A stretch of 64,000 nucleotides of DNA from a phage. Below are positions 3,473-25,380 of this stretch, in pieces (position 1 is the first letter of the stretch; each line of letters starts with the position of its first letter). The translations under genes were made by a program, and so were the position numbers. The stretch is taken from the NCBI GenBank assembly GCA_014686905.1, contig GCA_014686905.1_4093.1; one strand, given 5' to 3'. Under the pieces are notes generated by a model that was not told the origin of the DNA, made no database searches, and was given only the letters and a program-made list of their open reading frames with translations.

Positions 3473-3814
3473 ATGCTTGAGTTTTTTAATTCAGATACAA
3501 TGCTTGGTATCACGCTAATTTACATGTTTGTATTTTTGTGTTATCATTCAATTGTAATTAGTCTGTGGTATTTTAAAAGGAAAATTGTTTTTAAATTGTA
3601 TTCGGATGATAATGTAGTCTTAGTTTTATATAGTATTATCCAAGGTGGGTTTATTTTATTTGGTGTGATGACATATGCGATTTACATGTTACAAATTGAT
3701 AATACACCACACATTACACAATATCTTGTGTTTTCAGGTCTAATCGTGTGGTTGTTGGTGTGTAGCATATACTTTATTATTAAAGCTCGTGATAGAATTA
3801 AAGGGGATTTCTAA
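3473..3814 (+). CDS. small membrane protein, tandem paralog 1 of 8
   Basis: About 3 hydrophobic helices; WYFKRKIVFKLY motif; clear paralog of 3814-4152; stop/start overlap. Confidence 0.6.
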   Translation: MLEFFNSDTMLGITLIYMFVFLCYHSIVISLWYFKRKIVFKLYSDDNVVLVLYSIIQGGFILFGVMTYAIYMLQIDNTPHITQYLVFSGLIVWLLVCSIYFIIKARDRIKGDF

Positions 3815-4152
3815 TGTTAACATTCTTTAAGTCAGATACAATGCTTAGTATTACTTTGATTTATCTTTTTGGTTTTTTCTTTTATCATGCACTGGTTGTA
3901 GTACTATGGTATTTTAAAAAGAAAATTGTTTTTAAACTGTATCCAGTGAGGAATTCATCACTAGTTCTTTACACAATTGTTCAAGGTTTGTTTGCAATTG
4001 TTGGTCTTATGGCACACTTAATTTATTGTGCTAATCCTCACTTGAACTCAATCTCACAATATATTGTATTCTTTGGGTTGTTCATTTGGTTAGGTGTATA
4101 CTTAATCCATCTCATTATTCATGGTAGAGATAAAATTCGCGGAGACTTCTAA
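3814..4152 (+). CDS. small membrane protein, tandem paralog 2 of 8
   Basis: Near-identical architecture to 3473-3814 (MLxFFxSDTML...WYFKKKIVFKLY...RDxIxGDF). Confidence 0.6.
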   Translation: MLTFFKSDTMLSITLIYLFGFFFYHALVVVLWYFKKKIVFKLYPVRNSSLVLYTIVQGLFAIVGLMAHLIYCANPHLNSISQYIVFFGLFIWLGVYLIHLIIHGRDKIRGDF

Positions 4153-4499
4153 TGTTTGAAGCTTATCTTGAGTTTTTAAGGAGTAGTCCAGTTGCACATT
4201 CACTTGCAGGGATTATTCTAACAACTTATGTATCATTTTGGGTAGTTATGTTTCTAGGATGGTATTTTAAACGACAATTCTATAAACGTAATGGTGAAGA
4301 TTTTATGAATTCTGTCATTAATCAATCGTTGTTTGCATCAACATTGATTGCATGTATTGTAGCAACACTCACAGGAAAGGTACTACCAGCTTTTTCCGCA
4401 GTTTACGGCACACTTGGGATGATATGTTTAACTTTTATATTGACCATTAAAATTTGTTGTGTTATGATTGAACTTCGAAATAAGATACCGGAGGAATGA
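4152..4499 (+). CDS. small membrane protein, tandem paralog 3 of 8
   Basis: Hydrophobic; WYFKRQFYKR motif; ATGA overlap with neighbour. Confidence 0.55.
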   Translation: MFEAYLEFLRSSPVAHSLAGIILTTYVSFWVVMFLGWYFKRQFYKRNGEDFMNSVINQSLFASTLIACIVATLTGKVLPAFSAVYGTLGMICLTFILTIKICCVMIELRNKIPEE

Positions 4500-4834
4500 T
4501 GGAGTACTTTATTGATTTACTGCCGTGGTATATGAAAGTTAGTACCATGTACTATATTATTAGTGCTGGATTCTACTTTCTGATGTGGTTCTTTAAACGA
4601 CCAATTTCAGTATTCATCGCTGATAACATGCTGCAATTAAAATTACACGCATGGTTTGGTCTGGCGATGATTATGCCTATTATTCACTACTCAATGATTA
4701 GTAGAGGTTTCCGTTCTAATGGTGAACCAATTGTATTAGTATTCTATTGGGGTTCAACTATTGCATATGTAAGTTTGTTGTTGTTCCCAGTCGTTCATAA
4801 GTTACGTGCTAAAGTTCCTGATGCGAGGTACTAA
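4496..4834 (+). CDS. small membrane protein, tandem paralog 4 of 8
   Basis: Hydrophobic; WFFKRP motif; overlaps neighbours. Confidence 0.55.
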   Translation: MMEYFIDLLPWYMKVSTMYYIISAGFYFLMWFFKRPISVFIADNMLQLKLHAWFGLAMIMPIIHYSMISRGFRSNGEPIVLVFYWGSTIAYVSLLLFPVVHKLRAKVPDARY

Positions 4835-5148
4835 TGGATATAGTAACATTGATTTACACGTTGTATTCATTCTATTTCATTATGTGTTGGGTTGGATTTT
4901 TATTTGTACTCAAGATGTTTGATTATGTTGAAAAACAGATAAAAGAATTTTGTATTCCTTTTATCGGTTCAACCATTATTAGTGTTTCTTGTGTGTATTT
5001 TTTGGTTTTTGATCCACCAGATAACACTGCAATGATTGACTTGATGTTACTACCAACAACTGTTACTTTTTTATGTAGTCTGATGCCGCCGATTAGCCGT
5101 GGACTAACAGAATTTAGACGCAATCAAAAGCGTAAACGAGGGATGTAA
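4834..5148 (+). CDS. small membrane protein, tandem paralog 5 of 8
   Basis: Hydrophobic helices; same size class; abutting neighbours. Confidence 0.5.
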   Translation: MDIVTLIYTLYSFYFIMCWVGFLFVLKMFDYVEKQIKEFCIPFIGSTIISVSCVYFLVFDPPDNTAMIDLMLLPTTVTFLCSLMPPISRGLTEFRRNQKRKRGM

Positions 5149-5516
5149 TGGAAATTGCTCTTATTATCTTAACTGCTATGTTGTTTATTAGTACTGTGGT
5201 TATAATTGGTAAATTCTTTTGTGTATCATTTTTAGAAACGGTATACGATGAAATTGCTGATGATTATGAACTACAAGCCGGATTTTTCATTACGTATTGG
5301 CTTAGTTTATTTTGTCTAGTCATTGCTTGGATTTTACATATCTTTAAATGGGGTATGGTAGACGGTGATCCTATTATGGCAATTATTGTTCTAGTGTTTG
5401 GTATCCTTGGTGGTGCAGTGCATAATCTAATGGTTATCTGGCAAACTGTTCAATATGTTTTGGTTCCCTATTTCGAAAAGATGCACAGTACAATTAAAAA
5501 ACGTAAACGAGGTTAG
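5148..5516 (+). CDS. small membrane protein, tandem paralog 6 of 8
   Basis: Hydrophobic helices; basic C-terminus KKRKRG like neighbour. Confidence 0.5.
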   Translation: MEIALIILTAMLFISTVVIIGKFFCVSFLETVYDEIADDYELQAGFFITYWLSLFCLVIAWILHIFKWGMVDGDPIMAIIVLVFGILGGAVHNLMVIWQTVQYVLVPYFEKMHSTIKKRKRG

Positions 5517-5517
5517 T

Positions 5518-5880
5518 ATGAACGGGATAGAATTATCTTTCGTTGGTCAATTACTAGTAATGGCGTATACATTTATCTTCTCACTGAATGCATTCGTGTG
5601 CATTGGGAAGTACTTCCATAAGCGACCATTATCAAATATATATGATGTAATCCAAAAGAGATATAGTCCAGCATATACTGTGTTGGGTACAGTATTCAAT
5701 TTTGGTTTTATTGTATTAATAATTGGACTGTTCACATCCTCTTTGAATACAATAACCTTCGGTCTTATGATATGTTCATTGGTATTAGCCGTAATTATAT
5801 GTTGTTTAGTACTGCACCTTGTGGTACTATTGTATATAAAGATCTCTGAAATCCACCAACGTTTGGGTATGAGGAAATAA
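5518..5880 (+). CDS. small membrane protein, tandem paralog 7 of 8
   Basis: Start moved to ATG at 5518 (MNGIELSF) just after previous stop; hydrophobic. Confidence 0.5.
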   Translation: MNGIELSFVGQLLVMAYTFIFSLNAFVCIGKYFHKRPLSNIYDVIQKRYSPAYTVLGTVFNFGFIVLIIGLFTSSLNTITFGLMICSLVLAVIICCLVLHLVVLLYIKISEIHQRLGMRK

Positions 5881-5881
5881 T

Positions 5882-6253
5882 ATGAGTTACCGTGAGATAT
5901 TTTCCATTATTTCAATTATTATGTTCAGTACTGGAACACTGGTATGGTTATTATACTTCTTCTGTATTAATCCAGTGTATAATATGTTATGTAATATTAA
6001 ATCAAGTGCCGGATATATCACTTTTATGGTCTTTATGGGATATTATTGTCTAAGCATTTTAGGTGTTGTTTTGGTTGTTATATTTGATGTGGGACCAAAT
6101 AGTGATGGTATGGAAATACATGAATTAATAACCATGTTTGGATGTATGATACCAACAGCACTACTGTTTGTAGCTACTGGTAGTGGATTGATAAAATTAT
6201 ATAATTATTTAAAATCCATTCATAATTCCATTCATAATAAGCGTATGTCATAA
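5882..6253 (+). CDS. small membrane protein, tandem paralog 8 of 8
   Basis: Hydrophobic helices; followed by inverted repeat CCAGTACT...AGTACTGG. Confidence 0.5.
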   Translation: MSYREIFSIISIIMFSTGTLVWLLYFFCINPVYNMLCNIKSSAGYITFMVFMGYYCLSILGVVLVVIFDVGPNSDGMEIHELITMFGCMIPTALLFVATGSGLIKLYNYLKSIHNSIHNKRMS

Positions 6254-6294
6254 TAAAAATCCAGTACTATTAAGTACTGGATTAATAAGGAGTT

Positions 6295-6957
6295 ATGATG
6301 AAAACAAAATTAGGTTTGTTTTATAAAAATTATTTCGTTAAACAGCGTAAATTTATAAAAAAATATTTCTCTGGTGAGAAGTCTAGTCCTATAATTTTTA
6401 AAAGACCAAGTTATAATACTTACTTAGCTGGTGCTAAACAGTCTAAGAAATTTATTACTCTTTTAAATAAAAACAAAATTAAAGCTTCTTATGTTGAAAC
6501 GAGAAGAAACTCATCAATAACTCCTGGTGATTTTATTGAGTACGGATGTTTCAATATTAAGTACAATGATAATACATACTTTATGGATATTGATTGTAAT
6601 ACATCCAATCTTTTTAACATTGTAGTAAATCCATTAAAACAATATAATGTTTATGGTGATTCTATTATCAAATTAATCAAAAACAAAGATAGCTTTGATT
6701 TTGAAATAAATGTTTTAGATGATAATTTTGACGAAGTACCAGTAAACCCTGAAATCTGTGATATTTTAAACAGTTTAAAAGGTAGTACCTACAATATATC
6801 ATCTGATTTAATGTTTCAGTACTCATTAATCCATAAAGATATTGAAAAGTATATTGAATGCTCCAAAATTTTGAATTATCTTTACGATGAATTTAAAAAG
6901 AGTTCTAAAATAACTGCATACACTTTGTACAATATTCCTAAAATGGTGAATCTTTGA
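6295..6957 (+). CDS. hypothetical lysine-rich protein
   Basis: ORF with SD AAGGAG upstream; converges on the minus-strand array. Confidence 0.55.
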   Translation: MMKTKLGLFYKNYFVKQRKFIKKYFSGEKSSPIIFKRPSYNTYLAGAKQSKKFITLLNKNKIKASYVETRRNSSITPGDFIEYGCFNIKYNDNTYFMDIDCNTSNLFNIVVNPLKQYNVYGDSIIKLIKNKDSFDFEINVLDDNFDEVPVNPEICDILNSLKGSTYNISSDLMFQYSLIHKDIEKYIECSKILNYLYDEFKKSSKITAYTLYNIPKMVNL

Positions 6958-8090
6958 CAAATACAGTACTGGCAACTCCACCGTCTGTAATATATTGTCC
7001 AGTACTGTAAATTTGTATACCATCGGTTAAGTAAGTTCTGTATAAAGTTGCTGTAACATATACGTTATTCATATTCATCTCTATTGGTAGTACACATTTG
7101 GTATAGGCCGACACATCTGTTTGTGTACCTATACCCAATTGACCTGCGTTATCGCCTGTGTTATAACCAGTTGCGTAAACACCTAATGAAGTTATAATAT
7201 GATTAGAAAAATATGAATAACCCACACTGCTTCTTATTATATCACCTGGTGCTTGTGTTGTTTGTCTTAACGAAATATATGTTTGTGATGTAGAACCATT
7301 TGCTAACTGACCAAAGTACTGTCCACCACCATGATATGCAAATAATTTATTAGTACTATTATTACTTGCTATAGCAAAAGCGAAGTAACTTGAGTTTGTT
7401 GTATAATCTTTCACCGTATAGGTATTAGTTATTTGAGAACATAACGTGTACTTTGAATATAACGTCATGTCGGTTGTACCTACGCCTGATATTGCACCAG
7501 TATAATACAATCTCCCATCGGTTCCAATAAATCCTTGCATAAGAAAATTTGCCAGTATTTTGGATGGTGTTACTCCAGTAGGTACTGTTCCTTGTACAAA
7601 TGATGAAAGTGAATCGGTACTTCTACCATTTCCCAGTTGTCCATAACTACCATAACCAGTATTCCATATCGTGTTGTCTGTACATAATACGCTTAATGCA
7701 CCTGCACTAACTGCAATTTGTTTTATTGTTTTTCCTAGGGCTGTTATTCTATCAAACACTATCTTTGCAGAAGCCCACGTAGTAGACTTATCAGTTGATA
7801 AACCCAATGATGCACCATTCCCAGCGTACCACATCGTATTATCTTTCTTTTTTATTAAAGTTGACTCATACCCGCACCCATATATCTTCTACGTTTGTAT
7901 TGCATAAAACCCATTGGGTCTGTGTTATAATATTACCTATACCCATTTGCCCAAACTCTTGAGAGCCTCTACTGTATAGTGTCCCGTCTGACATAAGGGC
8001 AAAAACTGTCGTATCAGATGAAGATATTTTGGTAACAGTAGGGGGTAGGTTCTTTTTTGATGATGTGATAATTCTTCCAAAGGGTAGCAT
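6938..8090 (-). pseudogene. RCC1-like repeat paralog (MLPFGRI N-tag), interrupted by frameshift near 7866-7888
   Basis: N-terminal piece (MLPFGRI..., stop 7866-7868) and C-terminal piece (open from 7888) are in different frames and together match the length of intact paralogs; G-rich junction with a nearby A-run. Confidence 0.5.
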
Positions 8091-8162
8091 TGTATCCTCC
8101 AAATGTAAATCGTTATTATATTTAGGACAAAAAAATGCCAGTACAAGGCACTGGCATAAAAT

Positions 8163-9332
8163 CTAAGCAGAAGGCATATCCTTCATTTTAATAAATGAAA
8201 ATTGTGTACCAGTATTTGTGGTTTGATCAGTAAAATATGAATTACTACCAGCCCAGTACAATTCATTATTAACTATACAATATATAACAGAACTCGAACT
8301 CTGTGAATACACACGACTTATATTTGATGGTTCTACTCCAGTACTGAACTGAACCGAACCCAACTGTGAACTTGGTATCACATCAGTTGGTCTACCTAAA
8401 CCATTAACACCAGCCCCACCACCACATGTATATACCCCAGTACTATCAGTTGATATATTAACATAACCATTTCCGGCATTTTCAAATAGTATTTCACTGG
8501 GAACAACACCAAATCCAGTAAGATCTATTTTCCTGAATGTAGTGTAAACAGTAGAACCACCAACACCTCTTCCACCATAATCATTAGAACCAGCCATATA
8601 GATACTATATCCAGAACTTCCTAAACATAATAACTGTACGTTGTCATATAATATTTGCATAGATATAACGTTATCAGGAATACTCAATACCGTAAAAGTA
8701 GTTAAAGAAGAACTTCCAATATTACTACCAACCGATGTTCCACATCTGTAGTACTTACCGCCTTTTATATAATGGAACGATGAACCGCCTAACTTATGTG
8801 CTCCTATTGTACTTACCCCAGTATCTATAAGAATGGGAGATACAACTTTGTTATTAACACCTAACTCAGATCTACTGTTCATACCGAACCCATATAAACG
8901 ACCATCTAACATCAATATTAGTGTACTACCGGAAGTACCCGCTGACGTAAATTCTATATTCTTTATTTGCGACACGTCAATACCTACAAATAATGAAGTT
9001 ACTTCAGTCCAGTTAACATATGAACCACTAGCCCCAAAATATCCACCCATGTATAGACCTGCACAATATAATTTATTATCAACAGTCTTTATTAATGTAC
9101 CGGATACACACGCCCAAAAATCATCAACTTCATAGGGTACATGTACCCAACCACCTAATACATCACTAGCATCCCCTGTACCTAATTTATAGTTCGAACC
9201 AGAACCACGCATGTACATATTCCCTGTACTATAAAGTAATCCGACATGTAATTGACTACCATCCAATTTCTTTATTTCAGGAAGAGTTGGTTTAATATTT
9301 CCGTACTTTAACATTCTTCCAAAAGGTAACAT
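8163..9332 (-). CDS. RCC1-like repeat protein with conserved N-terminal tag MLPFGRMLKYGN
   Basis: Starts MLPFGRMLKYGNI after SD GGAGG; Gly/Ser/Thr/Asn-rich body with repeated GxxxxGQLG-type motifs. Confidence 0.7.
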   Translation of the reverse strand: MLPFGRMLKYGNIKPTLPEIKKLDGSQLHVGLLYSTGNMYMRGSGSNYKLGTGDASDVLGGWVHVPYEVDDFWACVSGTLIKTVDNKLYCAGLYMGGYFGASGSYVNWTEVTSLFVGIDVSQIKNIEFTSAGTSGSTLILMLDGRLYGFGMNSRSELGVNNKVVSPILIDTGVSTIGAHKLGGSSFHYIKGGKYYRCGTSVGSNIGSSSLTTFTVLSIPDNVISMQILYDNVQLLCLGSSGYSIYMAGSNDYGGRGVGGSTVYTTFRKIDLTGFGVVPSEILFENAGNGYVNISTDSTGVYTCGGGAGVNGLGRPTDVIPSSQLGSVQFSTGVEPSNISRVYSQSSSSVIYCIVNNELYWAGSNSYFTDQTTNTGTQFSFIKMKDMPSA

Positions 9333-9344
9333 AATTTTCTCCTT

Positions 9345-19832: not shown

Positions 19833-19905
19833 AAATCCCTCCTTATTCATTATACTATATTTAATACAAAAAAGAAAAGCCAGCATCAAGTACTGGCATA
19901 TCAAA

Positions 19906-21054
19906 TCACTGCAAAAATGACATATCGACTTCGGTATAATTAAGAACGTTCTGTCCAGCAATACCTCCCATTACTACAATTGAAGCCCCACAATAATATA
20001 ACTTCGAAGTGTCAGTAAGTATAAGTGAACCAGATGGGGTGCGTACCAAATTACACGAAGTATTAAACGAAGTATATGAAGGGGTATAAGAGTACTGATT
20101 AATATTATTACCAACACCTAATTGACCAGACGAGTTGCTTCCAGATGCATAAAGTACTTCATCACCTTTAACTATATGTGACGCCATGTTACCAACACAA
20201 GTATATAAACTATAAACTCCTGAACTCAATAATGTTGGAGTTTTGTATTGTATATCTGTAGATGAAGAAGTACCACCTGTGCCAAATTCGTTCCCGTATT
20301 GTGCACCGAACTGTTTACCACATGCGTACAAATTATTATCTGATTTAATAAAAAATGTACTCTGATAACTTACATCAAAATCTATAACATCCGAAGCAAT
20401 CATCGTCACCCCAGTAATAGAAGTTTGATTACCTGTACCTAACTGATAGTAATAGTTAAAACCACAACCCCATAAAGTATTATCTTCTTTTAGGTATATG
20501 TTACCAACTGCCTTTTTAACCGAAGTTATAGTATCTACCCTTTTGAATGTGTTAAAAGAATTAATGTTTGTACCATCACCAAATGATGATAGGTTAGAGT
20601 TATTGTTAGCTCCACAACAATACAATGTACCATCGTTTGTTATCAAATTTACCTTCATATCATTAAAACTACTCATGTATTTTATATCAGAAACATTAAT
20701 ACCACCTGATGTTATCCACGTAGTACATTCCGTCCACAAAGTTTTTCTATCAGTTACACCAGTGAATGCCTTCGTGTTACCAGTGATAAAAACTTTTCCA
20801 GTACCTTTCTCTTCATACAATTGACAATCACTACTGTTATTTTCCAATAGAACTCGTTTAACATTCTCCGCACTAAGAATAAATTTACTCGACGAAACAC
20901 CTGTTCCAGTACCCCAATTCGTCGCAGAAGATGCATACAACTTATCAGTATAAGTATCATGAAGATACATGGAATCACTGGAATATATTTTAAAACGTCC
21001 ATCATCACCAGGGGCAATATTCCCGTACTTAATCATTCTAACAAAAGGTAACAT
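19906..21054 (-). CDS. RCC1-like repeat protein with N-terminal tag MLPFVRMIKYGN
   Basis: Start set to ATG at 21054; near-duplicate of 17503-18651. Confidence 0.7.
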   Translation of the reverse strand: MLPFVRMIKYGNIAPGDDGRFKIYSSDSMYLHDTYTDKLYASSATNWGTGTGVSSSKFILSAENVKRVLLENNSSDCQLYEEKGTGKVFITGNTKAFTGVTDRKTLWTECTTWITSGGINVSDIKYMSSFNDMKVNLITNDGTLYCCGANNNSNLSSFGDGTNINSFNTFKRVDTITSVKKAVGNIYLKEDNTLWGCGFNYYYQLGTGNQTSITGVTMIASDVIDFDVSYQSTFFIKSDNNLYACGKQFGAQYGNEFGTGGTSSSTDIQYKTPTLLSSGVYSLYTCVGNMASHIVKGDEVLYASGSNSSGQLGVGNNINQYSYTPSYTSFNTSCNLVRTPSGSLILTDTSKLYYCGASIVVMGGIAGQNVLNYTEVDMSFLQ

Positions 21055-21156
21055 ATTTCCCTCCTTATTCATTATATCATATTTACCCCATAAAGAAAAC
21101 CCTTGACATCCTTTCAGTACTGGTGTACTATAGAAGGAATATAAGGAGAACTACAC

Positions 21157-21384
21157 ATGACAAATACTCTTAAGCACTACCTCAATACTCTAAATGAACT
21201 AGAGTACGGGGAATTTCTCGCGGATAGTTCGTGGCTAATTGAGCTAAAAAATTATAATAGTCCAGGATGCACCCTTATGATGAACAATGCAATTGATACC
21301 CTCATTGTGAGTATTTTACACAGCAACATCTGCGGGGATAGCAATAAACAATTATCAAAAATCTTAGTACTGCTATCTATATGA
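21157..21384 (+). CDS. small protein, first gene of the family-1 array (divergent)
   Basis: SD AAGGAG upstream; TTGACA/-10-like promoter in the divergent intergenic region. Confidence 0.5.
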   Translation: MTNTLKHYLNTLNELEYGEFLADSSWLIELKNYNSPGCTLMMNNAIDTLIVSILHSNICGDSNKQLSKILVLLSI

Positions 21385-21584
21385 ACATTGAACAGTACTA
21401 CATCGATGCACTACCAACAAAAGGTCTACGAGAAAGCCTACTGTATACACAAAATACTTTTATACACTACAAACGTTGTCCTAAACTCCTGAACTCGTAC
21501 AGGAGTAATATCATAAGAAATGCTTTACAAGGGGCAGAAAGTATGCAATACTATTATATCCTTGCCCTTTTAATCGAGTACTAA
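21381..21584 (+). CDS. family-1 small paralog (C-terminal aromatic tail, LIYRY-like)
   Basis: ATGA overlap with neighbour; ends ...YYYILALLIEY. Confidence 0.5.
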   Translation: MNIEQYYIDALPTKGLRESLLYTQNTFIHYKRCPKLLNSYRSNIIRNALQGAESMQYYYILALLIEY

Positions 21585-21585
21585 T

Positions 21586-21795
21586 ATGAATACTGAACAT
21601 AAAGAATTCTACACCAAATACCTTAGCAACGAAGAACAATTGTTTCTAAGGAGTGTATCACCTGTAAGTACCAATACTCACTTCGGTAGAGATTGCTTTA
21701 ATAATTGTATACGTAGTACTCTAGAAGCAATCGAATGCAATAACAAAAATATTATGTACTCAGGTTTAATAGGACTAATCTACTTCTATGAATAA
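21586..21795 (+). CDS. family-1 small paralog
   Basis: MNTEHKEFYTKYLS... N-terminus, GLIGLIYFYE tail. Confidence 0.5.
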   Translation: MNTEHKEFYTKYLSNEEQLFLRSVSPVSTNTHFGRDCFNNCIRSTLEAIECNNKNIMYSGLIGLIYFYE

Positions 21796-21982
21796 TCATA
21801 AAGATTTCTATGGTAGTAAACTACACAAGCAAGACCAGCTATCATTCTCTTTAGCACCACCTATGAGAAAGGATAATCTATATTACAATTACGATTTCAG
21901 GATGGCGACACGTTATGCAATAGAACATCAGTTCCCTGAAACTAAGTACCGCTCTATCCTGAACCTCATCTTTAAGTTCTAA
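21788..21982 (+). CDS. family-1 small paralog
   Basis: MNNHKDFY start; tail ILNLIFKF. Confidence 0.5.
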   Translation: MNNHKDFYGSKLHKQDQLSFSLAPPMRKDNLYYNYDFRMATRYAIEHQFPETKYRSILNLIFKF

Positions 21983-22034
21983 AAGGTGCAACAGGAACCG
22001 AGTACTTTAATATAGTAAGGCTAATTACATTATA

Positions 22035-22220
22035 ATGAATCATATAAGCTACTACTACCAACAACTATCCGACAGAGACAAGTACAGTCACAACTCCCAT
22101 GTGTGGTACTACAAACGCGGCAGTATAAGAGACAAACAACATTACTTCTGTATTTCTATTAAAGAAGCACTGACAACTAAGTACACGTACCGAGCAGTAC
22201 TGAAACTTATTGAAATGTAA
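22035..22220 (+). CDS. family-1 small paralog
   Basis: Tail ...YTYRAVLKLIEM. Confidence 0.45.
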   Translation: MNHISYYYQQLSDRDKYSHNSHVWYYKRGSIRDKQHYFCISIKEALTTKYTYRAVLKLIEM

Positions 22221-22228
22221 GGAAGAAA

Positions 22229-22411
22229 ATGAACATAGAATTCTATTTAACTAAACTACAACACGCCGAAAGATTCAACTTCAATAAGTTCAATATTTTC
22301 TACAATTGCGGGAACAAAAAAGATAAACACACCTTCCTATATGTCGTCACAAGAGATGCACAAAACGAAAAGTACACATACAGAGAAGTAATGAAACTAA
22401 TCGCTATTTAA
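22229..22411 (+). CDS. family-1 small paralog
   Basis: Tail ...YTYREVMKLIAI; SD GGAAG. Confidence 0.45.
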   Translation: MNIEFYLTKLQHAERFNFNKFNIFYNCGNKKDKHTFLYVVTRDAQNEKYTYREVMKLIAI

Positions 22412-22419
22412 GGAATACT

Positions 22420-22599
22420 ATGCAACAATTCTATAGAGAACGTATAACCATAAAAGACCGTTTCATGTACGACACCTTCGTGAAGTACTACAAACTAGGA
22501 ACAAAAAGTACTAAAAATATTAATCTCAATAGCTGCATTTATGCTGTACTAACACAAGATAATCCCTACAGGGAAATCCTCGCCCTGGCATCTATATAA
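22420..22599 (+). CDS. family-1 small paralog (59 aa, below track cutoff)
   Basis: Hand-translated MQQFYRERITIKDRF...PYREILALASI; SD AAGGAA upstream. Confidence 0.4.
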   Translation: MQQFYRERITIKDRFMYDTFVKYYKLGTKSTKNINLNSCIYAVLTQDNPYREILALASI

Positions 22600-22609
22600 A
22601 GGAAACCAA

Positions 22610-23281
22610 ATGAAACTTAATGCACACAGCAAACAATACCTTAAGCACTTTAAGTACCTCAATAGTATTCAGGCAGAATCAGTTACATCTGCATATACGT
22701 ATCACCCGAATGTACTAAAGAAACGAAATAAAAAGGAAAAATCCAGTACAAATGGAGTTAACGTATCAAAGAACCTTGAATTGTACATGAAGAAAAATAA
22801 TATAGCTGTTCATTATATGAATATCTATAATACTGATTTAAAAGTATTGAGTACTAATACGAGCACAAAGGTACTAAAGAACGCATCCTTCATCATCAAT
22901 ATGCAGTTGGATAATACCCCGTGCACTTTAATGCTATACTTCGGGAATACATACTTCTTCGGGAATTGTAACACCTCCCACGATGTCAATACAGCACAAT
23001 TCCAAATGGGTGGCATATACAATATGGGTTCAAAAAAAGTACACGAGAATATGCACTTCTGGCAAGCACAACGTACAGAAGAAACTAAATCAATTGTAGA
23101 TTTCCTCAAAGAACTAGAACACAAAGAACTACAGGAAGAAGAACTATTCATGTACAGTACTGTAATCGATAATCCAGTACTCTATAAAAACGCGTACAAT
23201 CTGACAAAACATGTACAGGAAATTATCAGTACTAATAAGAAAATGCATCACCTCATTACGTATATTACAAACTATGTATAA
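22610..23281 (+). CDS. family-3-like protein (EEELFMYSTVIDNP motif) embedded in the family-1 array
   Basis: 223-aa ORF with SD AAGGAAAC; motif resembles the EEYFQxSLVxD signature of the 51.7-64 kb array. Confidence 0.55.
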   Translation: MKLNAHSKQYLKHFKYLNSIQAESVTSAYTYHPNVLKKRNKKEKSSTNGVNVSKNLELYMKKNNIAVHYMNIYNTDLKVLSTNTSTKVLKNASFIINMQLDNTPCTLMLYFGNTYFFGNCNTSHDVNTAQFQMGGIYNMGSKKVHENMHFWQAQRTEETKSIVDFLKELEHKELQEEELFMYSTVIDNPVLYKNAYNLTKHVQEIISTNKKMHHLITYITNYV

Positions 23282-23456
23282 AGAATACTACCAAGAACAT
23301 CTCCCAATGCATCTCCAACACCTTGTACCCAAAGAACCAATAGGAATAAAAGATCACGCAAAAATAATGTTCCAACAATGTACTAAGTACACGCTCATAT
23401 ACGATGATAATCCATATATGCTGTACTACGTAGTAATGCTAACATTCAGGTACTAA
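23274..23456 (+). CDS. family-1 small paralog
   Basis: Start moved to MYKEYYQEHLP; tail YYVVMLTFRY. Confidence 0.5.
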   Translation: MYKEYYQEHLPMHLQHLVPKEPIGIKDHAKIMFQQCTKYTLIYDDNPYMLYYVVMLTFRY

Positions 23457-23457
23457 T

Positions 23458-23637
23458 ATGCACAAACATAAAGAATTCTACCTCTCGTACCTTAATTCCG
23501 ATATAGTAACATCCAATACCTTCAGTACTAAAATTATCTATAATGAATTAATAAAAGAATGTATTAAAGGTGCTATTAACCCTAAAGATACGTATGACTT
23601 GTACTATGCAGTACTAACCCTTGTTTTCACGAAATAA
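23458..23637 (+). CDS. family-1 small paralog (59 aa)
   Basis: Hand-translated MHKHKEFYLSYL...LYYAVLTLVFTK. Confidence 0.45.
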   Translation: MHKHKEFYLSYLNSDIVTSNTFSTKIIYNELIKECIKGAINPKDTYDLYYAVLTLVFTK

Positions 23638-23645
23638 CACATAAT

Positions 23646-23837
23646 ATGAATAACCACAAAGAATACTACATAGAGAAACTCCCAATGTATCTCCAACACC
23701 TTGTACCAAACGTTGCATTGGGTATAGAAAAAAACTACGAAAAAGACTACTTCATTCAGTGCACTAAATCCTCGATATATATTGACGACTATAATCGAGT
23801 ACTGTATCACATCCTTTTACTAATATATAGGTACTAA
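23646..23837 (+). CDS. family-1 small paralog
   Basis: MNNHKEYYIEKLPMYLQHLVP...LLLIYRY. Confidence 0.5.
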   Translation: MNNHKEYYIEKLPMYLQHLVPNVALGIEKNYEKDYFIQCTKSSIYIDDYNRVLYHILLLIYRY

Positions 23838-23838
23838 T

Positions 23839-24021
23839 ATGCACAAAGAATACTACACACAATTTCTCCCCAGCATTTTTGAACACTACGCCAGATATAA
23901 AGTCCCTCTGGATAACGATTTGGCAGTACTGGGATTCAATAACTGCATAGAACGAAGTATAGAAAATAGTAGTAGTTATGACCAGCTATATAACACTATC
24001 CTACTTATATTCAGGTACTAA
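23839..24021 (+). CDS. family-1 small paralog
   Basis: MHKEYYTQFLP...ILLIFRY. Confidence 0.5.
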   Translation: MHKEYYTQFLPSIFEHYARYKVPLDNDLAVLGFNNCIERSIENSSSYDQLYNTILLIFRY

Positions 24022-24022
24022 C

Positions 24023-24211
24023 ATGCATAAAGAATACTACACAAAATATTTCCCAATGTACCTCAGAACTAATCTATTAGATAAACCTCGCGGTATCAAT
24101 GCACAAAATGATAAAGTGTATTTTACTATGTGCACTAAAGCATGTATACTAGATTTTGACAGCTACCATCGAGTACTGTATCATACCCTGTACCTAGCTT
24201 TCGTATTCTAA
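24023..24211 (+). CDS. family-1 small paralog
   Basis: Start moved to MHKEYYTKYFP; tail LYLAFVF. Confidence 0.5.
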   Translation: MHKEYYTKYFPMYLRTNLLDKPRGINAQNDKVYFTMCTKACILDFDSYHRVLYHTLYLAFVF

Positions 24212-24220
24212 GAGAACAAT

Positions 24221-24406
24221 ATGCATAAAGAATTCTACTTAAGCCACCTCGATCTAAACTCCCAAATGCTTATACCACAAATCCCAATAGATATCAAGGA
24301 TAAGAAAAATACCGAACAATTCATTTACCATACACAGTGTGCGATCACCCCAAATTACATTCCATATGAATTGTACTACATTCTCGCCCTAATATATAGG
24401 TACTAA
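24221..24406 (+). CDS. family-1 small paralog
   Basis: MHKEFYLSHL...ILALIYRY. Confidence 0.5.
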   Translation: MHKEFYLSHLDLNSQMLIPQIPIDIKDKKNTEQFIYHTQCAITPNYIPYELYYILALIYRY

Positions 24407-24407
24407 T

Positions 24408-24593
24408 ATGCATAGAGAATACTACACACAATTTGTTAAAGGGAACTACAAACATGCCGTACCCAGAACCCCTTTAAATTTTCATGACCCAAGTACTATA
24501 TTCTTGTTTAATGACGCAATACGTACAGTACTCAATACTAAAGATGAAGATGTGCAGTACGTATTCTTACTATTACTTATATACAGACACTAA
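24408..24593 (+). CDS. family-1 small paralog
   Basis: MHREYYTQFV...LLLLIYRH. Confidence 0.5.
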   Translation: MHREYYTQFVKGNYKHAVPRTPLNFHDPSTIFLFNDAIRTVLNTKDEDVQYVFLLLLIYRH

Positions 24594-24598
24594 CTAAT

Positions 24599-24808
24599 AT
24601 GAATAAAGAACATAAAGAATTCTACTCCAAATACATAAGCCCCTCAGAACAAATGTTTCTAAGGACTACACCACCTTTAAGTACTAATACATATTTCGGC
24701 AGAGTATGCTACAATAATTGTATTCAAATGACTTTAAACGCAAACGAAGATGATAACAGTACTAACCTGTACTCAGGTATCATAGGTATACTATTCCTGT
24801 ATGAATAA
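24599..24808 (+). CDS. family-1 small paralog
   Basis: MNKEHKEFYSKYIS...GILFLYE; near-duplicate of 21586-21795. Confidence 0.5.
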   Translation: MNKEHKEFYSKYISPSEQMFLRTTPPLSTNTYFGRVCYNNCIQMTLNANEDDNSTNLYSGIIGILFLYE

Positions 24809-24989
24809 TTACAAAGACTTCTATTTGAATACACTACCTACTGTACTTTCTCTAAGTGCTCAATGTAAAATCCCGCTGGATAATGCTTACGCCAGATATA
24901 GCTATTCCATAACTGTTAATCGATGTATAGAGAATCATTGCAGTACTAACCAGTACTATAACATAATCCTACTTATATTCAGGTACTAA
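24801..24989 (+). CDS. family-1 small paralog
   Basis: MNNYKDFY...IILLIFRY. Confidence 0.5.
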   Translation: MNNYKDFYLNTLPTVLSLSAQCKIPLDNAYARYSYSITVNRCIENHCSTNQYYNIILLIFRY

Positions 24990-24990
24990 T

Positions 24991-25173
24991 ATGAATAAAG
25001 AACATAAAGAATTCTATATACGAAAACTAACATTCGTCCCCGTAAGAATATATAAAGAATGCGACCCAAGATTATACCTATGGCACTTCAATGAGTGCAT
25101 AAAAGATTCTATATACCCTAAGAACTACAAAGAACAATTGTGCTCAGTACTAACACTAGTACTATCATATTAA
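24991..25173 (+). CDS. family-1 small paralog
   Basis: MNKEHKEFYIRKL...LTLVLSY. Confidence 0.5.
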   Translation: MNKEHKEFYIRKLTFVPVRIYKECDPRLYLWHFNECIKDSIYPKNYKEQLCSVLTLVLSY

Positions 25174-25188
25174 TTAATAGAGAATACT

Positions 25189-25380
25189 ATGTATAAAAAC
25201 TTCTATATAAGTAAACTAAAAGAAAATGAACAAGTATGGATTAGATCTATAATTCCACTGGCATTTAATAGATATGCATTTAACAGATGTACCGAGATTG
25301 CTATAGACCCTTATAATATTAAAGAGAATGTACAGTATAATCAGTACTACTATATCTTAATGCTTATATATAGGAAGTAA
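25189..25380 (+). CDS. family-1 small paralog
   Basis: MYKNFYISKL...ILMLIYRK. Confidence 0.5.
   Translation: MYKNFYISKLKENEQVWIRSIIPLAFNRYAFNRCTEIAIDPYNIKENVQYNQYYYILMLIYRK

What the first reader, a model, noticed from the sequence alone, without database searches (positions are those of the whole stretch)
6938..21072. Tandem array of 12 paralogs with a shared 13-aa N-terminal tag and RCC1-like repeat bodies
Twelve consecutive minus-strand genes of about 370-395 aa all begin MLPF(G/A/V/T)RM(L/V/I/M)(K/N)YGN and then diverge into Gly/Ser/Thr/Asn-rich sequence with recurring blade-like motifs (AWGIGYNTDGQLG, YAWGRNTNGELGQGN, GGQNSGQLGNG, GVNTGGQLGVGN). These resemble RCC1/beta-propeller repeats. 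Copies range from near-duplicates (17503-18651 vs 19906-21054) to barely alignable, which suggests repeated duplication and diversification, as expected for receptor-binding, host-range or anti-defence proteins. An invariant N-terminal peptide on variable bodies suggests a shared targeting or anchoring signal (virion incorporation, capsid targeting or export).
Basis: partly seen in the sequence, partly recalled or inferred. Interest (0 to 1): 0.85.

Follow-up and report, generated by a model that had tools for sequence, protein, structure and literature searches.

The report
Address-tagged virion binding-protein cassette array
A giant E. coli phage carries a row of about a dozen genes for minor virus-particle proteins that all start with the same 12-residue peptide followed by very different binding domains; the peptide most likely attaches interchangeable "sticky" modules to one site on the particle, which would give a handle on how such phages vary what they bind.

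Summary
On the minus strand, 11 genes start with exactly M-L-P-F-x-R-M-x-x-Y-G-N. A 12th copy has a decayed tag and a frameshift. Ten bodies are RCC1-like seven-bladed propellers. One (14261-14929) is instead a glycine-rich, tail-fibre-adhesin-like domain, and one propeller gene (9713-10522) is truncated by a frameshift.

The window comes from an Asteriusvirus-type jumbo coliphage (121Q/phAPEC6/JP4 group). There the array is already annotated as [quoted passage not shown].

The tag itself appears to be undescribed. It heads at least 121 distinct genes in related ~350-kb phages. Their bodies have five unrelated types: RCC1, Kelch, LamG-type lectin, phrog_6011 and Gly-rich. Its amino acids are conserved while its codons vary. 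AlphaFold2 models it as a flexible N-terminal extension. Published virion proteomes of phAPEC6, JP4, CBB and GAP32 contain 19 tagged or RCC1-array proteins.

My best reading is a virion-addressing (docking) peptide on interchangeable ligand-binding modules, probably displayed externally. The ~110-bp terminator-promoter-RBS-tag junction appears to double as the recombination site for cassette exchange. Packaging inside the capsid, as with the T4 capsid-targeting sequence, is not excluded. The "DNA condensation" label has no support here.

The parts
19906..21054 (-). Tagged RCC1-like propeller gene (382 aa; cassette 'F'). It is the first gene of the array.
   Evidence: The tag is MLPFVRMIKYGN. 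It hits PF25390, PF13540 and PF00415. It is 68% identical to gene 18651.
18723..19832 (-). Tagged RCC1-like propeller gene (369 aa; cassette 'A').
   Evidence: Found. The same cassette occurs in JP4, 121Q, G17 and phAPEC6.
17503..18651 (-). Tagged RCC1-like propeller gene (382 aa; cassette 'P').
   Evidence: Found. A 98.3% identical cassette sits at a different position in the 121Q array, and the homology ends inside the junction repeats.
16245..17432 (-). Tagged RCC1-like propeller gene (395 aa; cassette 'N').
   Evidence: Found. It is present in JP4 and absent from 121Q, G17 and phAPEC6.
15001..16191 (-). Tagged RCC1-like propeller gene (396 aa; cassette 'B').
   Evidence: Found.
14261..14929 (-). 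Tagged glycine-rich-domain protein (222 aa; cassette 'C'). It is not RCC1-like. It has an in-frame 23-aa deletion relative to its 245-aa orthologues.
   Evidence: It has no Pfam hit and matches phrog_4474 at 2e-59. Its homologues carry PF21722. The AF2 model has pLDDT 92.4, with residues 1-7 below 50. The best PDB fold matches are the cyanophage Pam3 tail fibre gp24 and the Bxb1 tail tip, at low TM-score.
13046..14188 (-). Tagged RCC1-like propeller gene (380 aa; cassette 'H'). This is the protein that was modelled.
   Evidence: The AF2 model has pLDDT 90.6. The propeller runs from residue ~21 to 380, and residues 1-20 have pLDDT 45-65. Foldseek matches UVR8 and RCC1-like domains. JP4_582, which starts with the same sequence, was detected in JP4 virions.
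11800..12975 (-). Tagged RCC1-like propeller gene (391 aa; cassette 'D').
   Evidence: Found. The JP4 orthologue JP4_581 was detected in virions.
10604..11791 (-). Tagged RCC1-like propeller gene (395 aa; cassette 'O'). It has no junction of its own and follows gene D after an 8-nt gap with only a ribosome-binding site.
   Evidence: Found.
9340..10522 (-). Tagged RCC1-like gene truncated to 269 aa by a 1-nt frameshift (stop at 9713; cassette 'E'). The remaining ~140 aa are readable in the +1 frame down to about 9340.
   Evidence: Shown. The same 269-aa form occurs in JP4, 121Q, G17 and phAPEC6. phAPEC6 gp007 (269 aa, 30.06 kDa) was detected in virions.
8163..9332 (-). Tagged RCC1-like propeller gene (389 aa; cassette 'I').
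   Evidence: Found. The phAPEC6 orthologue gp010 was detected in virions.
6938..8090 (-). Decayed 12th copy. Its tag is MLPFGRIITSSKK, it has a frameshift near 7870, and a 298-aa RCC1-like ORF (6938-7834) follows. It is probably a pseudogene or split gene, equivalent to 121Q_234/235.
   Evidence: Shown.
14930..15004 (-). Representative inter-cassette junction. It consists of the hairpin GCCAGTACAAAGTACTGGC plus a T-run (terminator-like), then TTGTATTAAATATAGTATAATGAATAAAGGAGG (promoter-like -10 element and ribosome-binding site), and continues into the 36-nt tag codons (14894-14929).
   Evidence: Shown. The 107-nt junction occurs 4-16 times (mostly 8-13) per genome in 36 of the 41 matching phage records.
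19833..19907 (-). Junction repeat upstream of gene A.
18652..18726 (-). Junction repeat upstream of gene P.
   Evidence: Homology blocks shared with 121Q and JP4 end here.
17433..17507 (-). Junction repeat upstream of gene N.
16192..16266 (-). Junction repeat upstream of gene B.
14189..14263 (-). Junction repeat upstream of gene H.
12976..13050 (-). Junction repeat upstream of gene D.
10523..10597 (-). Junction repeat upstream of gene E.
8091..8160 (-). Diverged junction upstream of the decayed 12th copy. The hairpin is kept and the promoter part has diverged.

Best explanation
The array encodes a repertoire of minor virion proteins, each built as a 12-residue N-terminal address peptide, a short and often proline-rich linker, and an autonomous ligand-binding domain.

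The peptide has the consensus M-[L/I]-P-F-x-R-[M/I/L]-hydrophobic-x-Y-G-N. It most likely docks all of these proteins onto one common acceptor site of the virion, probably as an extended strand that adds onto a structural protein. The site is probably exposed on the head, tail or hair-like appendages. The bodies are interchangeable binding modules that broaden or change what the particle sticks to. In this window they are RCC1-like propellers and one glycine-rich adhesin-like domain. In related phages they also include Kelch propellers and LamG-type lectin folds.

Each cassette has its own terminator-like hairpin, promoter-like element and ribosome-binding site. The ~110-bp junction, including the tag codons, is the only sequence the cassettes share. 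It therefore also serves as the homology for duplication, loss, replacement and translocation of cassettes between phages.

Shown: the anatomy, the fold, the modularity of the tag, its amino-acid-level conservation, virion association (from published proteomes), and mosaic breakpoints at the junctions.

Inferred: that the peptide itself mediates incorporation, that the proteins are external, and that they bind host-surface ligands.
For: Tag and anatomy.
- 11 exact tags lie on one strand.
- The junction architecture is shown. Terminator-like hairpins number 19, against 6.0 +/- 2.3 expected from shuffles.

The tag is separate from the fold.
- AF2 gives low confidence (pLDDT 45-70) for residues 1-20 ahead of confidently folded bodies.
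- This holds for both body types modelled, RCC1 and Gly-rich.

Modularity.
- The same tag heads RCC1, Kelch, LamG (PF13385), phrog_6011 and Gly-rich bodies in Salmonella phage 7t3, Erwinia phage Hallingskeid, CBB, GAP32, Serratia phage BF and metagenomic jumbo contigs.
- A degenerate-DNA scan of IMG/VR hit only 9 contigs (eight of 348-378 kb and one of 109 kb), four of which match 121Q, GAP32, CBB and BF by length.

Protein-level selection.
- Across 121 distinct tagged starts, P3 and F4 are 100% conserved, Y10 and N12 98%, G11 94% and R6 92%.
- Codons vary at the same positions: Pro CCT 66, CCA 46, CCG 8; Tyr TAC 73, TAT 46; Gly GGG 61, GGA 32, GGT 19.
- Conservation collapses after residue 12.
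- In 7t3 the tagged genes overlap by 4 nt with no intergenic junction, yet they keep the tag.

Virion association.
- phAPEC6 gp003, 005, 006, 007, 009, 010, 549 and 551 were detected in virions (PMC7247149). The six of these on the part of the phAPEC6 array that was scanned begin with the tag.
- JP4_577, 581 and 582 were detected in virions (PMC12648861).
- CBB_536, 537, 548, 549, 551, 552 and 553 were detected in virions (PMC5259590).
- GAP32 gp001 is reported as a structural protein, and an RCC1-like tagged gene is present on the GAP32-length contig.

An external, binding role.
- The body folds are classic ligand-binding scaffolds.
- The best structural match of the Gly-rich body is the Pam3 tail fibre gp24. 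Its N-terminal domain docks to the baseplate and its glycine-rich tip binds the receptor (PMC9608196).
- LamG-type bodies match PHROGs annotated as baseplate wedge and virion structural proteins.
- The pI values are near neutral (5.3-9.2) and 39-49% of residues are Gly, Ser, Thr or Asn.

Cassette exchange.
- Cassette order differs between window, JP4, 121Q, G17 and phAPEC6.
- Homology blocks of 92-98% identity end at about start-36 and start+50 to +75, i.e. inside the junction.
- The array is covered only 21-47% by the best related genomes, against 49-85% for the neighbouring 25 kb in the listed records.

Lineage-specific addressing. Homologous Gly-rich and phrog_6011 bodies in rV5-like phages carry a different short N-terminal leader, M[L/I]E[L/M]L..SG.K.
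Against: - No experiment shows that the peptide is necessary or sufficient for incorporation.
- The acceptor protein is unknown.
- The published proteomes give no peptide-level data on the N-terminus, so the tag could be removed. The phAPEC6 paper has no supplement held as text.
- 121Q and phAPEC6 have an inner body, and the phAPEC6 authors suggested the RCC1 proteins might build it. Internal packaging therefore cannot be excluded.
- Abundance in JP4 virions is low: 1 peptide each, with a signal about 200-fold below the most abundant protein in the part of the table read.
- The Pam3 match of the Gly-rich model is weak (TM 0.27, E 1e-3).
- An RCC1 propeller is globular and predicted to be monomeric, unlike canonical trimeric receptor-binding fibres.
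- The promoter class, and hence expression timing, could not be determined.
Confidence: 0.6

Rival explanations
1. Capsid-targeting leader for internal, ejected proteins, as in T4 internal proteins. The 12-residue peptide binds the scaffolding core or inner body, so the cassette proteins are packed inside the head and injected with the DNA. There the diversified propellers would neutralise host defence proteins.
For: - The T4 capsid-targeting sequence is a ~10-residue N-terminal leader shared by otherwise unrelated, poorly conserved internal proteins, and it is sufficient to load foreign proteins into the head (PMC9026906).
- The proteins here are low-abundance virion components.
- The array is hypervariable between close relatives.
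- 121Q and phAPEC6 have an inner body of unknown composition.
- These phages have T4-type head genes (Table 1).
Against: - There is no conserved Glu or other candidate prohead-protease site at or after the tag. Positions 13-24 have no residue above 51%. T4 leaders end in a gp21 cleavage site.
- The bodies are not the small basic proteins typical of internal proteins. They are RCC1, Kelch, LamG and glycine-rich adhesin-like folds, with relatives in tail fibres and baseplate proteins.
- The pI values are near neutral.
Confidence: 0.22
2. The conserved 5' segment is an RNA- or DNA-level element, for example a translation initiation enhancer, a regulatory target or purely a recombination linker. 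On this view the encoded peptide has no function of its own.
For: - Within the window, the 36 tag nucleotides and the ~75 nt upstream are conserved together, at mean 67% ungapped identity. The next 111 nt are 33% identical.
- Mosaic breakpoints fall in this segment.
Against: - Across genera the amino acids stay fixed while synonymous codons vary.
- The tag persists in 7t3 and in most Hallingskeid cassettes, where the genes overlap or abut and lack the junction.
- The nonsynonymous variation is restricted to positions 5, 8 and 9.
Confidence: 0.06
3. The database annotation is correct: these are 'regulators of chromosome condensation / DNA condensation proteins' that organise the packaged genome or act on host DNA.
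For: - The RCC1 fold and profile hits are real.
- The phAPEC6 authors speculated that the proteins organise DNA.
Against: - The label is transferred from the fold name only. RCC1-like domains are generic interaction scaffolds: the top matches are UVR8, RPGR and HERC2, not chromatin factors.
- There is no basic character.
- The same tag and locus carry lectin-, Kelch- and adhesin-type bodies in relatives. CBB, which has no RCC1 homologue, fills the syntenic locus with these.
Confidence: 0.03

Closest known systems
[quoted passage not shown]
   Same: This is the same locus and the same genes. Individual cassettes are 84-99% identical to those of published phages. Tandem duplication and virion detection are already reported.
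   Different: The published accounts treat the genes as RCC1 or DNA-condensation paralogues. None mentions the shared 12-residue N-terminus, and no paper in the searchable library contains any of the six tag strings searched. None mentions the non-RCC1 members, the homology of the CBB Kelch/LamG cluster to this locus, or the junction-mediated cassette exchange. The Munch paper states that the repeat region is absent from 121Q. That statement is contradicted.
T4 capsid-targeting sequence (CTS) on internal proteins IPI, IPII, IPIII and Alt
   Same: Both are short (~10-12 residue) N-terminal leaders shared by otherwise unrelated, fast-evolving virion proteins. In T4 the leader is sufficient to address cargo to the particle.
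   Different: There is no sequence similarity and no protease cleavage motif. The bodies here are large binding domains rather than small basic proteins. Location inside the head is not shown.
Modular receptor-binding proteins with a conserved N-terminal anchor and variable distal domain (for example Pam3 gp24, S16 gp38, and the branched tailspike systems of other phages)
   Same: The architecture is the same: an N-terminal docking part plus a variable binding part. There are several alternative binding proteins per virion, and they are exchanged by recombination. The Gly-rich member resembles Pam3 gp24, whose N-terminal domain docks to the baseplate.
   Different: Here the anchor is only 12 residues long instead of a folded domain. 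It is shared across five unrelated body types. Most bodies are predicted to be globular monomeric propellers rather than trimeric fibres or spikes.
Eukaryotic RCC1-like domain proteins (RCC1, UVR8, RPGR, HERC1/2)
   Same: They share the seven-bladed propeller fold, with TM 0.65-0.77 and profile E-values down to 1e-34.
   Different: Sequence identity is only 13-19%. No Ran-GEF or chromatin function is implied. The phage proteins have an address tag that the cellular RCC1-like homologues retrieved here lack.

Membership tests
RCC1-like domain (RLD) beta-propeller superfamily | Sequence matches to RCC1 repeat profiles (PF00415 / PF13540) at or above the curated cut-offs. | tested here: met
   Eight of the nine RCC1-type proteins scanned exceed the PF13540 (22 bits) or PF00415 (21.7 bits) cut-off. 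Gene 9332 is below both (18.6 and 15.6 bits) but hits PF25390 at 1.3e-15. PF25390 scores (58-101 bits) are all below its 150-bit whole-domain cut-off. Gene 14929 has no hit.
RCC1-like domain (RLD) beta-propeller superfamily | A seven-bladed propeller of four-stranded blades. | tested here: met
   The AF2 model of gene 14188 has pLDDT 90.6 and pTM 0.88, with 28 strands. Foldseek matches UVR8, RPGR, HERC2 and RCC1 at TM 0.65-0.77 and E-values down to 2e-20.
RCC1 proper (Ran guanine-nucleotide exchange factor / chromatin binder), the basis of the 'DNA condensation' annotation | Ran-binding face and beta-wedge, basic N-terminal tail, and chromatin or DNA binding. | not tested
   The only indirect evidence is 13-16% identity to RCC1, near-neutral pI, and an N-terminus occupied by the hydrophobic tag. 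No residue-level comparison was made. Bacteria have no Ran.
T4-type capsid-targeting-sequence proteins | A short N-terminal leader shared by unrelated virion proteins. | tested here: met
   The 12-residue tag occurs on five body types, and the proteins are found in virions.
T4-type capsid-targeting-sequence proteins | The leader ends in a prohead-protease cleavage site (for T4 gp21, cleavage after Glu in a hydrophobic-x-Glu context) and is removed. | tested here: not met
   No conserved Glu or any conserved residue occurs at positions 13-24 across 121 sequences. Actual processing could not be checked because no N-terminal peptide data are available.
T4-type capsid-targeting-sequence proteins | Located inside the capsid and ejected into the host. 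| not testable with these tools
   This needs accessibility or ejection experiments, or high-resolution cryo-EM. No PDB entry contains these proteins.
Phage receptor-binding / accessory adhesin proteins with an N-terminal anchor | Component of the mature virion. | tested here: met
   Published virion proteomes of phAPEC6, JP4, CBB and GAP32 were mapped onto tagged genes.
Phage receptor-binding / accessory adhesin proteins with an N-terminal anchor | A conserved N-terminal attachment element with a variable distal binding domain that is exchanged between related phages. | tested here: met
   Tag conservation against 23-39% body identity is shown. Cassette gain, loss and translocation with junction breakpoints are shown.
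Phage receptor-binding / accessory adhesin proteins with an N-terminal anchor | Exposed on the particle and binds a host-surface ligand. | not testable with these tools
   This is only inferred from the fold types and from the weak Pam3 gp24 match of the Gly-rich member.

The most novel reading that the evidence does not exclude
Rak2-like jumbo phages use a universal 12-residue 'address tag' as a natural plug-and-display system. Any domain that carries it is loaded onto one acceptor site of the virion, possibly the unexplained hair-like appendages on the head and tail of 121Q, phAPEC6 and CBB. At least five unrelated body types and more than 120 distinct genes carry the tag. New modules are swapped in by recombination at the tag-encoding junction. 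rV5-like phages run a parallel system with a different leader (M[L/I]E[L/M]L..SG.K) on homologous bodies.
Probability: 0.4. Interest if true: 0.75.

Novelty: new variant of a known kind. Interest (0 to 1): 0.6.

Why it matters
If the 12-residue peptide is indeed sufficient to load a protein onto the particle, four things follow.

- It would explain what the many "RCC1 / DNA condensation", Kelch and LamG "structural proteins" of the 121Q, GAP32 and CBB group are doing. It would also replace a misleading annotation that has spread through dozens of genome records.
- It would give a concrete, testable candidate for the composition or decoration of the unexplained hairy appendages of these phages.
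- It would identify a hypervariable, recombination-driven locus that probably tunes adsorption or host range in jumbo coliphages being proposed for therapy.
- It would offer a very small natural tag for displaying foreign proteins on, or packing them into, a 350-kb phage particle.

The parallel leader in rV5-like phages suggests that short lineage-specific address peptides may be a general and overlooked way in which large phages assemble accessory proteins.

Tried and rejected
- **Ostreococcus virus paper.** A paper on Ostreococcus viruses with 26 'RCC1' hits looked like a parallel hypervariable RCC1 region. The hits are Roscoff Culture Collection strain numbers, so this lead is irrelevant.
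- **Expression class.** I tried to infer it from the junction promoter. The sigma-70 scan is uninformative, with 82 hits against 71 +/- 9 expected. The 41-nt promoter segment occurs only 6-12 times per genome in the listed records, no more than the number of cassettes. No link to known late genes could be made.
- **Solved virion structures.** I looked for a PDB entry containing a tagged protein. Only eukaryotic RCC1-like domains came up for the RCC1 profile, and nothing for the Gly-rich or phrog_6011 bodies.
- **Prior description of the tag.** I searched the full-text library for six tag strings and found no papers. The UE-S1 and Sharanji genome papers do not discuss the array.
- **Peptide-level mass-spectrometry evidence for retention of the N-terminus.** The phAPEC6 supplements are not held. 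The JP4 tables give only protein-level counts.
- **The tag as the 'velcro' strand that closes the propeller.** Rejected. It has low pLDDT with no assigned strand in the RCC1 model, and it occurs on non-propeller bodies.
- **Tagged subunits polymerising into the hairs by donor-strand exchange.** Rejected as unlikely, because five unrelated body types cannot all provide the same acceptor groove.
- **RCC1 proteins as the whiskers themselves.** Weakened, because CBB has whiskers but no RCC1 homologue. However, four of the six CBB-specific structural proteins are tagged Kelch, LamG-type or uncharacterised small bodies, so a link between tagged proteins and hairs stays open.
- **Presence of the tag in RaK2/K64-1.** This was not verified either way. 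They were not hit in the IMG/VR pattern scan.

Full report
**1. What is in the sequence**

The window is AT-rich, with 31-40% G+C. Between 6938 and 21054 it carries a head-to-tail row of minus-strand genes.

A six-frame scan for MLPF.RM..YGN finds exactly 11 matches. All are on the minus strand in this interval, with none elsewhere in the 64 kb. A consensus AAGGAGG lies 5-8 nt upstream of each of these ATGs. The motif is therefore the real N-terminus. The longer ORFs listed mechanically (MNKGGIMLPF...) start inside the ribosome-binding site.

A 12th copy starts at about 8090 with a decayed tag (MLPFGRIITSSKK). It is broken by a frameshift near 7870 before continuing as ORF 7834-6938.

Gene 10522-9713 is cut to 269 aa by a 1-nt frameshift. 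The missing C-terminal ~140 residues are still readable in the +1 frame down to about 9340.

Nine of the ten tagged proteins tested hit the RCC1 profiles PF25390, PF13540 and PF00415. The tenth, 14929-14261, hits nothing in Pfam.
- there are 11 intact tags, not 12;
- the tag is 12 residues, not 13;
- one body is not RCC1-like;
- two genes are broken;
- the closest pair is 68% identical, and all other pairs are 23-39% identical.

**2. The junction**

Upstream of eight of the tagged genes there is a nearly identical ~75-nt segment, and a diverged copy lies upstream of the decayed 12th gene. It contains:
- a G+C-rich hairpin (GCCAGTAC-loop-GTACTGGC) followed by a T-run;
- then TTGTATTAAATATAGTATAATGAATAAAGGAGG;
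- then the ATG.

The terminator scan finds 19 hairpin-plus-T sites in the array, against 6.0 +/- 2.3 in shuffles. Most of them lie on the coding strand at these junctions.

The junction plus the 36 tag nucleotides average 67% ungapped identity between cassettes. The next 111 nt average 33%. Each cassette therefore looks like its own transcription unit. The only sequence shared between cassettes is the ~110-bp terminator-promoter-RBS-tag linker.

**3. Where the window comes from and what is already known**

The array and its flanks match Asteriusvirus-type jumbo coliphages of 348-386 kb: 121Q, PBECO4, phAPEC6, G17, JP4, UB and others. In those records the genes are annotated as 'regulator of chromosome condensation' or 'putative DNA condensation protein'.

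The literature already notes several things:
- phAPEC6 has eleven RCC1-like proteins, and its authors speculate they might organise DNA in the inner body (PMC7247149);
- 121Q and PBECO4 have multiple homologues of the structural protein GAP32 gp001 (PMC5259590);

None of these papers mentions the shared N-terminus. No paper in the searchable library contains any of the six tag strings searched.

**4. Fold**

I modelled gene 14188 with AlphaFold2, using an alignment of paralogues and homologues (A1). The model has mean pLDDT 90.6 and pTM 0.88, with 28 strands from residue 22 to 373, i.e. 7 blades of 4 strands. Residues 1-20, the tag plus the Pro-rich linker, score only 45-65 and have no secondary structure.

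Foldseek against the PDB returns UVR8, RPGR-RLD, HERC1/2-RLD and RCC1 at TM 0.65-0.77 and 13-19% identity. A profile search of PDB sequences returns the same families and no phage entry.

The RCC1-like fold is therefore confirmed. It is a generic interaction scaffold, and nothing supports a chromatin or DNA function. The proteins have pI 5.3-9.2 and are 39-49% Gly, Ser, Thr or Asn.

**5. The non-RCC1 member**

Gene 14929-14261 belongs to phrog_4474. Its wider family carries PF21722, a glycine-rich domain.

The AlphaFold2 model of the 245-aa orthologue has pLDDT 92.4, and again the first 7-20 residues have low confidence. Its best PDB matches are the tail fibre gp24 of cyanophage Pam3 (probability 0.94, E 1e-3), a Bxb1 tail-tip protein, and the ALK glycine-rich domain. 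TM-scores are low, at 0.22-0.27.

In Pam3 gp24 the N-terminal domain docks the fibre to the baseplate. [quoted passage not shown] The match is weak, so I treat it as a lead. It does point to an external adhesin rather than an internal protein.

**6. The tag is a portable module, conserved as protein**

The 107-nt junction occurs 4-16 times (mostly 8-13) per genome in 36 of the 41 matching phage records, the Asteriusvirus-type Escherichia and Salmonella phages. The tag part alone also matches Salmonella phages 7t3, Munch and SE_PL, coliphage EJP2 and Erwinia phage Hallingskeid.

In 7t3, sixteen consecutive genes start MIPFxRILxYGN. Several of them overlap by 4 nt with no intergenic junction. 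Their bodies are:
- RCC1-like;
- glycine-rich, with a GTG start;
- LamG/ConA-like, PF13385;
- phrog_6011, 'virion structural protein'.

In Hallingskeid, ten consecutive genes carry the tag on one Kelch propeller, eight RCC1 propellers and one phrog_6011 body.

A degenerate DNA pattern for the tag has about 36 bits of information, so roughly one chance match is expected in IMG/VR by my estimate. It hit 19 stretches, all on nine contigs. Eight of these are 348-378 kb and one is 109 kb. By their lengths four of them correspond to 121Q, GAP32, CBB and Serratia phage BF. They contain further LamG-type subfamilies, Kelch and RCC1 bodies.

Over 121 distinct tagged gene starts:
- P3 and F4 are invariant, Y10 and N12 are 98% conserved, G11 94% and R6 92%;
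- positions 2, 7 and 8 are hydrophobic;
- conservation falls to 51% or less from position 13 on;
- synonymous codons vary freely at the conserved positions: Pro CCT 66, CCA 46, CCG 8; Tyr TAC 73, TAT 46; Gly GGG 61, GGA 32, GGT 19; Arg AGA 88, AGG 20.

This is purifying selection on the peptide, not on an RNA or DNA element. The residues L2, F4, R6, V8 and Y10 would lie on one face of an extended strand. That would suit strand addition to a partner, but this point is inference only.

**7. Tagged proteins are in virions**

I mapped the published proteomes onto the genes.
- **phAPEC6.** Table 1 lists gp003, 005, 006, 007, 009, 010, 549 and 551. All are array members. The six on the scanned part of the array begin with the tag. 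They include the 269-aa truncated form, gp007.
- **JP4.** JP4_577, 581 and 582 were detected, each by one peptide at low abundance.
- **CBB.** CBB_536, 537, 548, 549, 551, 552 and 553 were detected with 9.5-50.7% coverage. The N-termini of CBB_537 and CBB_548-554 were read and all carry the tag. CBB_552 and CBB_554 have the variant MLPFSI..YGN. A second tagged gene next to CBB_537 on the CBB-length contig fits CBB_536. The bodies are LamG, Kelch or phrog_6011.
- **GAP32.** gp001 is reported as structural, and an RCC1-like tagged gene lies on the GAP32-length contig.
- **W70.** In the unrelated rV5-like phage W70, three RCC1 proteins of the same PHROG are virion proteins (PMC11370258).

Virion association is therefore well supported and does not depend on body type.

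The CBB cluster sits next to an opposite-strand block of small membrane-protein genes. The window array does too. The Kelch/LamG cluster of CBB is therefore the positional counterpart of the RCC1 array.

**8. Cassette dynamics**

I clustered the cassette proteins at 70% identity. The orders are:

| Phage | Cassette order |
|---|---|
| window | F A P N B C H D O E I |
| JP4 | F A N B J C H D O E I q |
| 121Q | F G A r B C P H D* E M |
| G17 | s L A J F G B C D t E I |
| phAPEC6 | F K G A L J B C H D E M I |

This is a conserved backbone with gains, losses, replacements and translocations.

In pairwise megablast, most blocks at 92-98% identity end at about gene start minus 36 (the end of the tag codons) and at gene start plus 50-75 (the hairpin). 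Adjacent blocks overlap only within the junction. Cassette P is 98.3% identical to a 121Q cassette that sits elsewhere in the 121Q array.

The array is covered only 21-47% by the best related genomes. The adjacent 25 kb is covered 49-85% in the listed records. The junction thus behaves as the recombination linker for cassette exchange. This is inferred from the breakpoint positions; recombination itself was not observed.

**9. Mechanism and rivals**

The most economical reading is an address or docking peptide. It brings interchangeable ligand-binding modules to a common acceptor on the particle.

I favour external display, at roughly 0.6 given incorporation, for four reasons:
- the body types;
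- their relatives in fibres and baseplates;
- the Pro-rich tether;
- the absence of any cleavage motif.

The main rival is a T4-like capsid-targeting leader for internal, ejected proteins. It shares the short-leader logic and fits the inner body seen in 121Q and phAPEC6. I cannot exclude it, and give it about 0.2. An RNA- or DNA-only role for the conserved 5' segment, and the 'DNA condensation' annotation, are both poorly supported.

The hair-like fibres on the head and tail of 121Q, phAPEC6 and CBB are still unassigned. CBB has hairs without RCC1 proteins. However, four of its six structural proteins that are absent from GAP32 are tagged. A connection between tagged modules and the hairs is therefore possible but unproven.

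**10. A second leader**

Homologues of the glycine-rich and phrog_6011 bodies in rV5-like phages and in ~150-kb metagenomic contigs begin with a different short leader. Examples are MIELLAISGTKP, MLELLAVSGTKP, MEEMLLTGGTKSPG and MQEMLLGG.

The same bodies with lineage-specific N-terminal leaders is what an addressing model predicts. I only looked at this in passing.

**11. Verdict**

The array itself is known and annotated, misleadingly. The tag, its cross-fold modularity, its link to virion incorporation and the junction-based cassette exchange appear to be undescribed.

I rate this a new variant of a known kind: N-terminal anchor or targeting peptides on variable virion proteins. Interest is 0.6. 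Confidence in the virion-addressing model is 0.6.

Noticed in passing
window 3473-6253 (+): A tandem array of eight small paralogous multi-pass membrane proteins (104-141 aa). Transcription is convergent with the tagged array. CBB shows the same arrangement (CBB_539-547, 'putative membrane protein'), and 121Q has a matching row of small hypothetical-protein genes (121Q_224-232). The pairing with the tagged-protein locus is therefore conserved across genera.
   Followed up: partly
window 21157-25380 (+): About 20 tandem ~60-aa paralogues (M[NH]KE[FY]Y...L[IL][FY]RY), transcribed divergently from the first array gene. A 223-aa ORF lies among them at 22610-23281. [quoted passage not shown] 2017 (PMC5646251).
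   Followed up: partly
window 9340-10522 (-): The 1-nt frameshift that truncates cassette E to 269 aa is conserved in JP4, 121Q, G17 and phAPEC6. The truncated product (phAPEC6 gp007) was detected in virions. The downstream +1-frame remnant is still an intact reading frame of ~140 aa. No classical slippery heptamer was seen at the shift (CAAAATTCAC), so programmed frameshifting is unproven but not excluded.
   Followed up: partly
L028 (GAP31) 5965-7782 and 11900-12553; proteins P0026-P0033, P0047, P0050, P0068, P0107: A second short N-terminal leader, M[L/I/x]E[L/M]L..(S/G)G.K, occurs on Gly-rich, phrog_6011-like and other small proteins (some annotated as virion structural) of rV5-like phages and ~150-kb contigs. 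The bodies are homologous to the tagged ones here. This suggests lineage-specific address peptides.
   Followed up: partly
window 14261-14929 (-): The Gly-rich cassette has an in-frame 23-aa deletion within its glycine repeats, compared with the 244-245-aa orthologues in JP4, 121Q, G17 and phAPEC6 (P0022).
   Followed up: partly
window 6295-6957 (+) and 6938-7834 (-): The 220-aa plus-strand ORF and the last (decayed) array gene converge, and their 3' ends overlap by 20 nt.
   Followed up: no
L003 (Salmonella phage 7t3) and PMC8273493: The Munch paper states that its 13-copy 'DNA condensation' repeat region is not found in 121Q, slurp01, GAP32 or PBECO4. The tag and locus comparison here shows it is the same system. 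The three 'unrelated hypothetical proteins' reported to interrupt the repeats probably correspond to the tagged Gly-rich, LamG and phrog_6011 members seen in the closely related phage 7t3.
   Followed up: yes
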